DNA of 64,000 nt from Escherichia coli. GTDB taxonomy: Bacteria > Pseudomonadota > Gammaproteobacteria > Enterobacterales > Enterobacteriaceae. The first letter of the stretch is position 1. The number at the start of each line of letters is the position of its first letter. The stretch is taken from assembly GCF_045037415.1 (NCBI RefSeq), contig NZ_CP173438.1; one strand, given 5' to 3'. Below are positions 43,550 through 55,784 of this stretch, piece by piece. The notes beneath the pieces were generated by a model that searched no databases, had not been told where the DNA came from, and saw nothing but the letters and a program-made list of their open reading frames with translations. The translations under genes and the position numbers were made by a program.

Positions 43550-43578
43550 ATCATCCTCCACAAAATGATAAAGGCTTT

Positions 43579-43598
43579 AATAATGATTATCATTTATA
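43579..43598. promoter_or_regulatory. Fur box in the entC / fepB divergent promoter region
   Basis: aataatgattatcatttat closely matches the Fur consensus GATAATGATAATCATTATC. Confidence 0.75.
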
Positions 43599-43737
43599 TT
43601 TTCGGTCGCTAACCTAAAAGCAAACGCGCACTATGTCAACTCTTGAGGTAACGCAATCTGCAACTCGGGGTTGCATCTGGTTGTGGTTACAATGAAAATG
43701 AGAAGCATTAACTTCATTAATAACAGGAAGCTGATTT

Positions 43738-44694
43738 GTGAGACTCGCCTCGCTCTACCGCAACGCCCTTCTATTAACAGGACTTTTGCTTTCAGGAATA
43801 GCCGCAGTTCAGGCCGCCGACTGGCCGCGTCAGATTACTGACAGCCGTGGCACTCATACCCTGGAAAGCCAGCCGCAGCGTATTGTATCCACCAGCGTCA
43901 CCCTGACTGGCTCACTGCTGGCGATTGATGCTCCGGTGATCGCCAGCGGCGCGACCACACCAAATAACCGCGTAGCGGATGACCAGGGCTTTTTACGCCA
44001 GTGGAGCAAGGTGGCGAAAGAACGCAAACTGCAACGGCTCTATATCGGCGAACCGAGTGCAGAAGCCGTTGCCGCGCAAATGCCGGATCTGATTTTAATT
44101 AGCGCAACCGGCGGCGATTCGGCGCTGGCGCTGTACGATCAGCTTTCTACCATCGCCCCAACATTAATCATCAATTACGACGACAAAAGCTGGCAGTCGC
44201 TGTTAACGCAGCTTGGCGAAATTACCGGGCATGAGAAACAAGCGGCAGAGCGGATTGCACTGTTTGATAAGCAACTGGCAGCGGCGAAAGAGCAAATCAA
44301 ATTACCGCCGCAGCCGGTCACTGCCCTTGTCTATACCGCCGCTGCACACAGTGCCAATCTCTGGACGCCGGAATCAGCACAAGGGCAGATGCTGGAACAA
44401 CTCGGCTTTACGCTGGCGAAGTTGCCCGCAGGCTTAAACGCCAGCCAAAGCCAGGGCAAACGCCATGACATCATTCAGCTTGGTGGAGAAAATCTGGCTG
44501 CAGGGTTAAATGGCGAGTCACTATTCCTGTTCGCCGGTGATCAGAAAGACGCCGATGCTATTTATGCTAATCCGCTGCTCGCGCACCTGCCTGCAGTACA
44601 AAACAAGCAGGTTTATGCGCTGGGAACCGAGACATTCCGCCTGGATTACTACAGCGCCATGCAAGTGCTGGAACGACTTAAGGCGCTGTTTTAA
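43738..44694 (+). CDS. fepB: periplasmic ferric enterobactin-binding protein
   Basis: 318 aa with signal peptide, recognised as FepB. Confidence 0.9.
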
Positions 44695-44697
44695 GCA

Positions 44698-45948
44698 TTA
44701 ATTGTCGGACGCTGTCACCTGCGGCGGCGTCTGGCGAAAACGCCGCAACTCCACCAGCACCAGCAACAACAACACGCCGATAATCAACAAACCAAAACCG
44801 CTCGCGCTTGCGGAAGCAACCGGTGTCATCATCGCTCCCAGACCGCCTAACAGCGCCGCACCTATGGCATCGCCCGTCACGTTTTGCGCCGTCCACAAAC
44901 CGTTAATCCGCCCTAACATCGCTTCCGGGGTTTGCGTTTGCAGCATTGTATATTGCAGCAACGAACTAACCGCGCTCAGCCAGCCGAACAGTGCCAGACA
45001 AACCACGCCTAAAATCCACATCGGCATCAGGCCAAACAGACCAATGGCGAGGAACGCCCCCAATGTGGAGAGCAACATCAACAGACCTGGCCGTACGCTA
45101 TGCGCCAGTTTTCCACTGGTTAACGCGCCAATAGCCGCACCGAGCGGGATTGCCGCATAGAGAAAGCCAATTTGCGCCGCCGACATCTGCCAGTTGTCAG
45201 CCAGCGCCGGATACAGTACCCGCACCGCGCTCGCCATCGTCAATAAACCCCCCAGCAACGCAATCCCTCCCACCAGCGGGCTGGCGAGTAGAAAACGAAA
45301 TCCTGCCAGTAATGATTTCAACGGATGCTCACGCGGCTGCGGCGGTGGTGGCAACGCCGGAAGGCTTAACAACGGTAGCAAGGTAATAAACGTGCCCGCC
45401 GCCGCCAGCCCGTAGTTCCAGGCTACGCCTCCGGTCGCCAGCAGTAAACCACCAATCATGGGCGAAATCACCGACCCCAGACGCACAGTCAACATGGTGA
45501 TCGCCCCGGCCTGCATTAGGTTTTCACGTCCTACCAGTGCAGGTGTCGCCGCCAGTAGCGCCGTAACGCCAAGTGATGCGAAAAAACCATCCCATAAACC
45601 AAGTAAATAGATTGCCAGCAAAGACGGCTCCGGCAGCAGCGCATTCAGGCACAGTCCAATGAAGCCAATGCCACAGGTGCCGCGCGCCAGCAAAATCACT
45701 TTTTTGCGCTCATAGCGATCCGCCAGCACACCACCGATCATCAGACCGACAAACATAGCACCGCCGGTCAGCGTCACCGAAAGCCCCACCTGCCAGGTAG
45801 AATGTGTCATCATCTGGATCTGCACCGGCACCGCGACGCTGAGCAAACCCAGAGACACAATTGAGATAAAACGAGCGAGGAATACTGCGCGAAACGCCGG
45901 GTGCGTTTTTAACAGGCTGAGGTTAAGCAGCCAGGATTGTTTATTCAT
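44698..45948 (-). CDS. entS: MFS enterobactin exporter
   Basis: 416 aa, 12-TM MFS protein recognised as EntS. Confidence 0.9.
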
Positions 45949-46021
45949 TACAATGCCTTGCCATCAAATATTTTAAATACCTATTCTTAGGCTGCACATG
46001 CTAACATATCCAAATAAGATC

Positions 46022-54122: not shown

Positions 54123-54337
54123 TGTGCCTCCTGCAACTGGGTGAAATTCGCCGGTGTCAGAGTACGCCAGTGGGCTTCCAGCCACTGCTGGCAGGACGCC
54201 TGTGACTGCGGCTGACACACAACGTCCCAGCCTGCCGGTAAGGCGCATTGTTGCGGCCACAGACTGAATTGCCCCTGCGCATTGCGCAAAATGTAAAACG
54301 CTCCCTGTGGATCATCGAAGGGATTACTGAATGCCAT
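54119..54337 (-). CDS. ybdZ: MbtH-like protein
   Basis: 72 aa MbtH-like sequence; stop overlaps the entF start. Confidence 0.85.
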   Translation of the reverse strand: MAFSNPFDDPQGAFYILRNAQGQFSLWPQQCALPAGWDVVCQPQSQASCQQWLEAHWRTLTPANFTQLQEAQ

Positions 54338-54339
54338 AT

Positions 54340-55542
54340 TCAACTCCTGTCATGGAAAAGTGGTTGCCAGAGGTCGATTAGCCCCTGCATCAAGCCACCG
54401 CGCCAACAAAGCGCATCATGTCCGCCGTCAACCTGACGCCAGAAAATGGATTCTTTTAGGGGGTGTAATTGCGCATACAGCGCCTGATTGGCCTGCATGA
54501 TCATCGGCTCGCGAACACCCGCTTCCAGCACAATGCGCAGACCTTCGGCGCTAACTTCACCAGTTTTTAGCTGTTCAAGTAACATGCCCTCTTGGTGCCC
54601 GCCCCGATGCGGCCACCAGTACGAACCTGACTGGCTTAATACACAGCCAAAGCGTTCAGGCCAGTGCAGTCCGGCATACAGCGCGGAAAGCCCACCAAAA
54701 CTCTGTCCGGCGACCACGGTGCGATCGGCGCGATCGCTAAAAGGGGCAATAGCTTTCACCTGGGGTAATAACTCTTGCTGTACTGCCAGCCAGAAATCCG
54801 CATTACACGGCAGTTCGTGGGCGCGGTGCGTGGTGTCGATAGCGTCGATCAACACATACACGGCGGGCGGAAGTTGCCGACGATGGGTCAGCGAAGTCAG
54901 CGCAGGCCAGACGGGCATACTCTGCGCCCAAAATTCGCCATCAAGCAAAACTGCCAGCGGGCGTTCTTCTGCTGTTGCATCGCCGATGGTAAAAATCCAT
55001 ACACGGCGTGAATTTTTCAACCGTTCACTTTTCCAGATAATTTCTTTGGCAGGCGTTTCTGGCGCTTGCGGACAATCCCATCCCGGTTGCAGAGGCGCTT
55101 GCGGCATTTCGAGTGCAGAAACAGCGTGCCCTCGCCCGCCTTTCCAGCTTTGTGGATTCAGCGGATCGGCTATCGCCTGGGGTAATAGTTTTCGCCAGCC
55201 TTCGCGTAATTCGAGGCGATCGGGGGATGGTGCAGAAAAAATGTCATCGCGTTCGGTAGGAATAAAGCAGTAGCTGCCGCGCCAGTTGGCATTGAGTTGT
55301 GTCGTCCACTGCCAAACATCGGTTCCTGCAATTCGCTGCATCGACCGGGGCTGGCTGTTCTGATGGTGATCGGTCATGCCAGTGATATAGACCCATACGC
55401 GCTTTATCGCCGAGTGGCCTTCAGAACCTTGTGGATCACGCCACCAAAAAGTGACTTCAAACATTTCGTCATTCAGACGTTGCCATTCCGGGCCATGTTT
55501 CGACTGCCACCAGCTCTCACTTCCTACTTTTAACGCCGTCAC
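54340..55542 (-). CDS. fes: enterochelin esterase
   Basis: 400 aa recognised as Fes. Confidence 0.9.
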   Translation of the reverse strand: MTALKVGSESWWQSKHGPEWQRLNDEMFEVTFWWRDPQGSEGHSAIKRVWVYITGMTDHHQNSQPRSMQRIAGTDVWQWTTQLNANWRGSYCFIPTERDDIFSAPSPDRLELREGWRKLLPQAIADPLNPQSWKGGRGHAVSALEMPQAPLQPGWDCPQAPETPAKEIIWKSERLKNSRRVWIFTIGDATAEERPLAVLLDGEFWAQSMPVWPALTSLTHRRQLPPAVYVLIDAIDTTHRAHELPCNADFWLAVQQELLPQVKAIAPFSDRADRTVVAGQSFGGLSALYAGLHWPERFGCVLSQSGSYWWPHRGGHQEGMLLEQLKTGEVSAEGLRIVLEAGVREPMIMQANQALYAQLHPLKESIFWRQVDGGHDALCWRGGLMQGLIDLWQPLFHDRS

Positions 55543-55589
55543 ACCATAACCCCATGTTTACTGTGCAATTTTTTATTGATTGCAGAAAT

Positions 55590-55625
55590 ATATTGATAAT
55601 ATTATTGATAACTATTTGCATTTGC
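55590..55625. promoter_or_regulatory. Fur boxes in the fes / fepA divergent promoter region
   Basis: tattgataatattattgataactatttgc, overlapping Fur-like repeats. Confidence 0.7.
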
Positions 55626-55784
55626 AATAGCGTAATGGCGCGCCGTGGGAAGCGCGGACATTAATTAATCAGCTGCACTGCGTGTCTTTCAGGATCAAAG
55701 GTTTTCGCGGTAGCGGGATGCGTCGTGTTGATGACGACCATGCCCGACAGTTGCAATTCGTGGCAAAAATGCAGGAATAAAACA

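What the first reader, a model, noticed from the sequence alone, without database searches (positions are those of the whole stretch)
43550..55784. Fur boxes at all three divergent promoters of the enterobactin cluster
Close matches to the 19-bp Fur consensus are visible at entC/fepB (43579-43598), entS/fepD (46022-46047) and fes/fepA (55590-55625). This is consistent with coordinated iron-responsive repression of the whole cluster; it is expected biology but confirms that the regulatory architecture is intact in this strain.
Basis: partly seen in the sequence, partly recalled or inferred. Interest (0 to 1): 0.2.

Follow-up and report, generated by a model that had tools for sequence, protein, structure and literature searches.

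The report
Known Fur operators of enterobactin cluster

Summary
The window is E. coli, and 43550-55784 spans the enterobactin (ent-fep-fes) cluster with its three divergent control regions. All three flagged sites are real.

- **PWM scan:** a Fur matrix built from 17 K-12 Fur sites outside this cluster ranks 43579-43597 first (20.1 bits) and 46022-46040 second (19.2 bits) in 64 kb. The fes/fepA site, 55601-55619, ranks sixth (13.3 bits).
- **Array score:** the three regions are the top three 6-bp-phased arrays in the window, and 0 of 200 shuffled windows reach them.
- **Footprints:** each site lies inside a published K-12 DNase I Fur footprint once coordinates are transferred. The DNA under those footprints is identical to K-12, except the last 8 bp of the fepB footprint.

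1. The entC/fepB region has two separate operators. The flagged one serves entC. fepB has its own at 43694-43712 (19.0 bits, rank 3), which was missed.
2. The fes/fepA operator is not a close match to the 19-bp consensus (6-7 mismatches). It is a phased array of weak sites.
3. This strain lacks a 186-nt palindromic insert that K-12 and about half of E. coli genomes carry in the fepB leader, next to the fepB box. The short form seen here is ancestral.

Verdict: already known, low interest.

The parts
43573..43603 (.). entC Fur operator: three overlapping sites 6 bp apart (43573, 43579, 43585). It lies inside the transferred K-12 entC footprint, 43555-43603.
   Evidence: PWM scores 14.9, 20.1 and 9.5 bits. 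Array score 44.5, the highest in the window. Footprint coordinates come from PMC2189734 Table 3, transferred through the gap-free alignment. Mean identity across 24 Enterobacteriaceae sequences is 0.89, against 0.63 for the spacer between the boxes.
The transferred K-12 fepB footprint is 43688-43718, and its last 8 bp fall in sequence that differs from K-12.
   Evidence: 19.0 bits, rank 3 in the window, 4 mismatches. [quoted passage not shown] The 16-mer core sits between divergent entC and fepB in 40 Enterobacteriaceae loci.
43611..43639 (-). Inferred entC promoter: -35 TTGACA (complement of 43634-43639), 17-bp spacer, -10 TAGGTT (complement of 43611-43616). The predicted start is near 43604, so the Fur operator sits at about +2 to +32.
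   Evidence: Both hexamers fall in invariant or near-invariant blocks of the 24-species alignment. The promoter assignment is an inference, and the simple consensus scan did not report it.
43671..43699 (+). Inferred fepB promoter: -35 TTGCAT (43671-43676), 17-bp spacer, -10 GAAAAT (43694-43699, inside the Fur box). The predicted start is near 43706.
   Evidence: TTGCATC is invariant in the 24-species alignment. The assignment is an inference.
43710..43711 (.). Empty site where K-12 and about 51% of E. coli genomes carry a 186-nt palindromic repeat element in the fepB leader.
   Evidence: Alignment to K-12. 2755 of 5426 genomes have the long form. The element belongs to a dispersed repeat family with a median of 6 places per genome and folds as a single hairpin of -91 kcal/mol. 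All 40 outgroup loci have the short form.
46016..46052 (.). Single shared entS/fepD Fur operator: sites at 46016, 46022 and 46028. It lies inside the transferred K-12 footprint, 46009-46077.
   Evidence: PWM scores 5.8, 19.2 and 10.1 bits. Array score 36.4. The intergenic region is identical to K-12. Footprint coordinates. Mean identity across 14 distinct sequences is 0.92, against 0.76 for the rest of the region.
55589..55625 (.). Shared fes/fepA Fur operator: four overlapping weak-to-moderate sites 6 bp apart. It lies inside the transferred K-12 footprint, 55587-55634.
   Evidence: PWM scores 5.2, 5.2, 13.3 and 6.3 bits. Array score 30.0, third in the window, reached by 0 of 200 shuffles. 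Identical to K-12 across the footprint. The 39-nt core 55591-55629 is 100% conserved in Pseudocitrobacter faecalis while the flanks diverge.

Best explanation
These are the four Fur operators, in three divergent control regions, of the E. coli enterobactin cluster.

When iron is sufficient, Fe2+-Fur dimers bind cooperatively to overlapping sites spaced 6 bp apart. These sites lie over or immediately next to the sigma-70 promoters of entCEBAH, fepB, entS, fepDGC, fes-ybdZ-entF and fepA-entD, and binding blocks transcription initiation. When iron falls, Fur releases the DNA and all six transcription units are derepressed together.

entC and fepB are back-to-back promoters, each with its own operator. 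entS/fepD share one operator, and so do fes/fepA.

What is shown here: the sites are present and statistically significant; they are identical to footprinted K-12 DNA; and they are conserved across genera. What is inferred or taken from the literature: the positions of the promoter hexamers, and repression in this particular strain.
For: - Identity of the locus: 100% match to annotated E. coli chromosomes carrying entC, fepB, entS, fepD and the rest of the cluster.
- A PWM from 17 K-12 Fur sites outside the cluster puts these regions at ranks 1, 2, 3, 5 and 6 of about 64,000 positions. 3 hits reach 19 bits against 0.02 expected. The array scores are the top three in the window, with 0 of 200 shuffles reaching them.
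- Only 4 positions in the window are within 4 mismatches of the consensus, and all lie in these regions.
- All sites fall inside the K-12 DNase I footprints given in PMC2189734 Table 3. The DNA under those footprints is identical to K-12 except the distal 8 bp of the fepB footprint.
- The entC and entS/fepD operators, which were not used to select the loci, are more conserved than the surrounding intergenic DNA in 14-24 Enterobacteriaceae species. The fes/fepA core is perfectly conserved in Pseudocitrobacter.
- The ent/fep genes are in the Fur core regulon of nine E. coli strains (PMC10164565).
Against: - There is no direct binding or expression data for this strain, and fur is not in the window.
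- As a single 19-mer, the fes/fepA site (13.3 bits) is no better than the typical best hit of a shuffled window (mean of the maximum 13.5). It is significant only locally and as an array.
- The training sites for my PWM were located with coordinates from a model that had itself been trained partly on ent sites, so there is mild circularity.
- Conservation of the fepB box across species is circular, because the loci were selected by that 16-mer.
- Conservation cannot separate Fur contacts from the promoter elements that overlap them.
- The primary footprinting papers could not be read.
Confidence: 0.95

Rival explanations
1. The matches are chance products of AT-rich intergenic DNA and are not protein-binding sites.
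For: The three intergenic regions are AT-rich, with GC of 0.31-0.42. The fes/fepA 19-mers have 6-7 mismatches to the consensus, and 17 window positions have 6 mismatches.
Against: Dinucleotide-preserving shuffles of each region on its own give p = 0.0005, 0.0015 and 0.016. No shuffled window reaches the array scores. The sequences coincide with experimental footprints and are conserved across genera.
Confidence: 0.01
2. The conserved AT-rich blocks are conserved mainly as promoter -10/-35 elements or as sites for another regulator, with Fur binding being secondary.
For: Candidate -10 and -35 hexamers overlap the fepB, fes and fepA sites. Conservation alone cannot tell these apart.
Against: The entC operator lies downstream of the conserved TTGACA/TAGGTT promoter, yet it is equally conserved. 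The 6-bp phasing and the matrix scores are specific to Fur. K-12 footprints and gel shifts show Fur binding to the same sequences.
Confidence: 0.03
3. Loss of K-12's downstream flank weakens or abolishes Fur control of fepB in this strain, so the architecture is not fully intact.
For: The last 8 bp of the K-12 fepB footprint and the last 2 bp of the 19-mer differ here. The site 6 bp downstream scores -6.9 bits here against 0.0 in K-12.
Against: The core 19-mer scores about the same in both (19.0 against 20.1 bits). The short form with ...ATTAAC is the commonest form among the Enterobacteriaceae examined. fepB is among the genes reported as regulated by Fur in all nine strains, but I did not check which leader allele each strain carries.
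Confidence: 0.05

Closest known systems
K-12 entC and fepB promoter-operators (Brickman, Ozenberger & McIntosh 1990, as cited and mapped in PMC2189734)
   Same: There are two separate Fur-protected regions. The DNA is identical to K-12 from the entC start codon through position 43710, which covers the whole entC footprint and 23 of the 31 bp of the fepB footprint.
   Different: This strain lacks the 186-nt palindromic element that follows the fepB box in K-12. The predicted fepB leader is therefore about 30 nt instead of about 217 nt, and the last two bases of the box are AC instead of TT.
K-12 fepDGC-entS bidirectional operator (Christoffersen et al. 2001; Lavrrar et al. 2002, as cited in PMC2189734)
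   Same: The 110-bp intergenic region is 100% identical. The site lies within the transferred footprint 46009-46077.
   Different: None detected.
K-12 fepA-fes bidirectional operator (Hunt, Pettis & McIntosh 1994; Escolar et al. 1998, as cited in PMC2189734)
   Same: Identical across the transferred footprint 55587-55634. It is an array of overlapping sites with 6-bp phasing.
   Different: There are three SNPs in the intergenic region (55574, 55669, 55672), all outside the footprint.

Membership tests
E. coli Fur operator (Fur box cluster) | Score with a Fur matrix at or above that of the weakest experimentally validated site | tested here: met
   The sites score 20.1, 19.0, 19.2 and 13.3 bits. 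The lowest leave-one-out score among the training sites is 10.1.
E. coli Fur operator (Fur box cluster) | Cluster of overlapping sites offset by 6 bp (multi-dimer binding) | tested here: met
   This holds at entC (3 sites), entS/fepD (3 sites) and fes/fepA (4 sites), which are the top three arrays in the window. The fepB operator is essentially a single 19-mer here (array score 19.6, reached by 17.5% of shuffled windows).
E. coli Fur operator (Fur box cluster) | Coincidence with DNA protected by Fur in DNase I footprinting | tested here: met
   The coordinates in PMC2189734 Table 3 were transferred through gap-free alignments. All four sites lie inside the footprints. The footprints themselves were made on K-12 DNA, not on this strain.
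E. coli Fur operator (Fur box cluster) | Position overlapping or next to a sigma-70 promoter of an iron-regulated gene | tested here: inconclusive
   Conserved candidate hexamers place the operators at or just after the predicted starts. The simple promoter scans are uninformative, and the papers that mapped the transcription start sites could not be read.
E. coli Fur operator (Fur box cluster) | Fur- and iron-dependent expression of the flanking genes in this strain | not testable with these tools
   Only literature on other E. coli strains is available (PMC10164565).
Enterobactin (ent-fep-fes) gene cluster | Gene content and order entCEBAH | fepB | entS | fepDGC | fepE | entF-ybdZ-fes | fepA-entD with three divergent control regions | tested here: met
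   100% identity over the tested 3-kb stretch (window 43300-46300) to annotated RefSeq chromosomes. The annotation of SK1144 gives the gene order, which is the same as in K-12. The ORFs found here agree with it.

The most novel reading that the evidence does not exclude
The fepB promoter-operator studied in K-12 is a derived allele. A 186-nt palindromic repeat element inserted about 5 nt after the predicted fepB transcription start, clipping the last two bases of the Fur box, and it is now carried by about half of E. coli genomes. This window shows the ancestral short-leader arrangement shared with other Enterobacteriaceae. If the long hairpin-forming leader changes fepB mRNA stability, translation or Fur occupancy, E. 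coli lineages would differ in how tightly ferric-enterobactin uptake is coupled to synthesis. The polymorphism and its polarity are shown here. The functional consequence is speculation.
Probability: 0.25. Interest if true: 0.3.

Novelty: already known. Interest (0 to 1): 0.08.

Why it matters
It matters little as a discovery. It confirms that this strain keeps the classical Fur control of enterobactin synthesis and uptake, which is part of the conserved core Fur regulon.

Two points have practical value:
1. Annotation should carry four operators, not three.
2. The K-12 reference fepB leader is not representative of E. coli as a whole. This matters to anyone who transfers K-12 promoter maps, reporter constructs or 5'-UTR models to B2/D-type or other short-leader strains.

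Tried and rejected
- **Consensus search at 3 mismatches or fewer:** it found only one site, so it is too strict to test the claim. I replaced it with a PWM and a full Hamming-distance census.
- **Primary papers:** Hunt 1994, Christoffersen 2001, Lavrrar 2003 and Escolar 1998 are not held, and Chen 2007 has no supplements held. I took the footprint coordinates from Chen 2007 Table 3 instead. Experimentally mapped transcription start sites could not be checked.
- **Simple promoter/terminator scans of the three regions:** they gave only 9-of-12 consensus matches at about background frequency, which is not informative.
- **Rfam scans of the cluster and of the K-12 locus:** no family covers any of the control regions or the K-12 leader insert.
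- **Literature search for the fepB leader insert:** nothing was found in the held library.
- **Cross-species test of fes/fepA:** only one fetched locus reached that far, so it rests on a single outgroup.
- **A fifth site upstream of fepE (50171):** considered and rejected at 10.8 bits with local p = 0.06.
- **The 15.4-bit hit inside ybdN (32790):** about 0.3 such hits are expected per shuffled window.
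Full report
**What the region is.** A 3-kb stretch of the window (43300-46300) is 100% identical to several complete E. coli chromosomes. Transferring the RefSeq annotation of strain SK1144 gives these genes (ORFs agree):

| Gene | Window coordinates | Strand |
|---|---|---|
| entC | 42374-43549 | - |
| fepB | 43738-44694 | + |
| entS | 44698-45948 | - |
| fepD, fepG, fepC | 46059-48864 | + |
| fepE | 48861-49994 | - |
| entF | 50241-54122 | - |
| ybdZ | 54119-54337 | - |
| fes | 54340-55542 | - |
| fepA | 55785-58025 | + |
| entD | 58200-58859 | + |

The finding's coordinates run exactly from the start of the entC/fepB intergenic region (43550-43737, 188 bp), through entS/fepD (45949-46058, 110 bp), to the end of fes/fepA (55543-55784, 242 bp).

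**Checking the observation.** The 19-bp consensus with up to 3 mismatches finds one site in 64 kb, at 46028-46046, against 0.02 expected.

A full census shows only four positions within 4 mismatches: 43579, 43694, 46022 and 46028. All lie in two of the three regions. The best 19-mer at fes/fepA has 6 mismatches, a level that 17 window positions reach. So 'close match to the consensus' holds for two regions but not for the third.

I fetched 17 K-12 Fur sites outside the ent cluster: fhuA, fur, gpmA, fiu, tonB, sufA, ydiE, cir, mntH, exbB, yqjH, bfd, ryhB, sodA, fecA, fecI and fhuF. Their coordinates came from Chen et al. 2007, PMC2189734. From these I built a symmetric 19-bp matrix of 17.8 bits, whose consensus came out as GATAATGATAATCATTATC.

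Top hits in the window:

| Position | Score (bits) | Location |
|---|---|---|
| 43579-97 | 20.1 | entC operator |
| 46022-40 | 19.2 | entS/fepD operator |
| 32790-808 | 15.4 | inside ybdN |
| 43573-91 | 14.9 | entC operator |
| 55601-19 | 13.3 | fes/fepA operator |

- Dinucleotide shuffles of the window give 0.02 hits at 19 bits or more (3 observed) and 0.78 at 13 bits or more (6 observed).
- Shuffling each intergenic region on its own gives p = 0.0005, 0.0015 and 0.016.
- Fur binds as arrays of sites 6 bp apart, so I also summed the positive scores at i, i+6, i+12 and i+18. entC (44.5), entS/fepD (36.4) and fes/fepA (30.0) are the three best arrays in the window, and none of 200 shuffled windows reaches them.

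**Comparison with footprints.** Chen et al. 2007, Table 3, lists the DNase I-protected regions in NC_000913.2. The offset to NC_000913.3 at this locus is +777. I verified this from the paper's own distances to gene starts (-36 for entC, -25/-86 for fepD/entS, -172/-149 for fepA/fes) against the current annotation. Transferred through gap-free alignments, the footprints map as follows:

| Footprint | Window coordinates |
|---|---|
| entC | 43555-43603 |
| fepB | 43688-43718 |
| fepD-entS | 46009-46077 |
| fepA-fes | 55587-55634 |

Every flagged site lies inside one of them. The entS/fepD region is identical to K-12. The fes/fepA region differs at three positions, all outside the footprint.

**Evidence from other species.** One exact-pattern scan of the species-level genome collection with the fepB-box core GAAAATGAGAAGCATT returned 120 loci. 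Many are chance hits in unrelated phyla, as expected for a 16-mer in 298 Gb.

In 40 loci the box lies between divergent entC and fepB. The genera include Escherichia albertii, Citrobacter, Enterobacter, Leclercia, Lelliottia, Kluyvera, Kosakonia, Pseudocitrobacter, Phytobacter, Siccibacter and Superficieibacter.

- **entC/fepB (24 full intergenic regions aligned).** The entC operator, which played no part in selecting the loci, has mean identity 0.89, against 0.63 for the spacer between the boxes. The region stays 180-188 bp long in all but one species.
- **Candidate promoters.** Invariant blocks outside the boxes fit back-to-back promoters. For entC: -35 TTGACA and -10 TAGGTT on the minus strand (43634-39 and 43611-16). 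For fepB: -35 TTGCAT (43671-76), then 17 bp, then GAAAAT inside the box. These give predicted starts near 43604 and 43706, about 102 bp apart. That agrees with my recollection of Brickman et al. 1990, which I could not verify. The promoter assignments are inference.
- **entS/fepD (14 distinct sequences).** The array has mean identity 0.92, against 0.76 for the rest, and the region is 109-112 bp long.
- **fes/fepA.** Only one locus reached it, Pseudocitrobacter faecalis, where the Fes N-terminus is 55% identical. The 39-nt core TATTGATAATATTATTGATAACTATTTGCATTTGCAATA is 100% conserved there while the flanks diverge.

**A difference from the reference strain.** K-12's entC/fepB region is 374 bp, not 188 bp.

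- The extra 186 nt begin right after ...GAGAAGCATTA, which is two bases inside the 19-mer fepB box and 8 bp inside the K-12 footprint. That is about 5 nt after the predicted fepB start.
- The insert is 57% GC and folds as a single long hairpin of -91 kcal/mol. It belongs to a dispersed repeat family with a median of 6 places per genome. It matches no Rfam family.
- 2755 of 5426 complete E. coli genomes carry it. The rest, including ST131 strains and this window, do not.
- In all 40 outgroup loci, fepB starts 34-57 nt after the box start, and in most exactly 44 nt, as here. The short form is therefore ancestral and the K-12 form is a derived insertion.
- The core box scores about the same in both forms: 19.0 bits here and 20.1 in K-12.

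**Mechanism.** From established knowledge of Fur (summarised in PMC2189734): Fe2+-Fur dimers occupy overlapping sites over or just downstream of the promoters and prevent initiation, and loss of iron releases them. Four operators in three control regions cover all six transcription units of the cluster, which gives coordinated derepression. ChIP-exo and fur-deletion transcriptomics in nine E. coli strains report the fep and ent operons as regulated by Fur in all nine, and list entC and entE in the core regulon (PMC10164565).

What is shown here is the presence, significance, identity to footprinted DNA and conservation of the sites. Binding and repression in this strain are inferred.

**Verdict.** The feature is already known and of low interest. 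The useful corrections are the missed fepB operator, the array character of the fes/fepA operator, and the finding that the K-12 fepB leader is a derived insertion allele.

Noticed in passing
window 43710-43711 (compare L002:17537-17724): K-12 and 2755 of 5426 complete E. coli genomes carry a 186-nt, 57% GC palindromic repeat element in the fepB leader, directly next to the fepB Fur box. This window has the empty site, which is the ancestral state in 40 Enterobacteriaceae loci. I found no description of it in the held literature.
   Followed up: yes
window 32790-32808: GGACATGATAATCATTTTT scores 15.4 bits with the Fur matrix (5 mismatches) and has a phased 7.4-bit neighbour. It lies inside the ybdN coding sequence. 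About 0.3 such hits are expected per shuffled window, so it may well be chance.
   Followed up: partly
window 49995-50240: The entF-fepE spacer is 246 bp here against 215 bp in K-12 and is strongly diverged from K-12, unlike the three control regions, which are identical or nearly identical to K-12. One of its few conserved blocks holds a weak Fur-like match at 50171-50189 (10.8 bits, local p = 0.06).
   Followed up: partly
window 58100-58141 (+): Rfam hit to the ES036 (CssrF) sRNA family (42.2 bits, gathering score 37.6) in the fepA-entD spacer. The same hit is present in K-12 (L002:3139-3180).
   Followed up: no
window 58861-60619: Next to entD this strain has two transketolase-family genes, where K-12 has IS186 and the hokE/sokE toxin-antitoxin locus. 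The flank of the cluster therefore differs between lineages.
   Followed up: no
L082 (Pseudocitrobacter MAG), entC/fepB intergenic region: This is the only species in the set with a longer entC/fepB region (247 bp against 180-188 bp), and its best entC-side Fur site is shifted. It may be another independent insertion in this control region.
   Followed up: no
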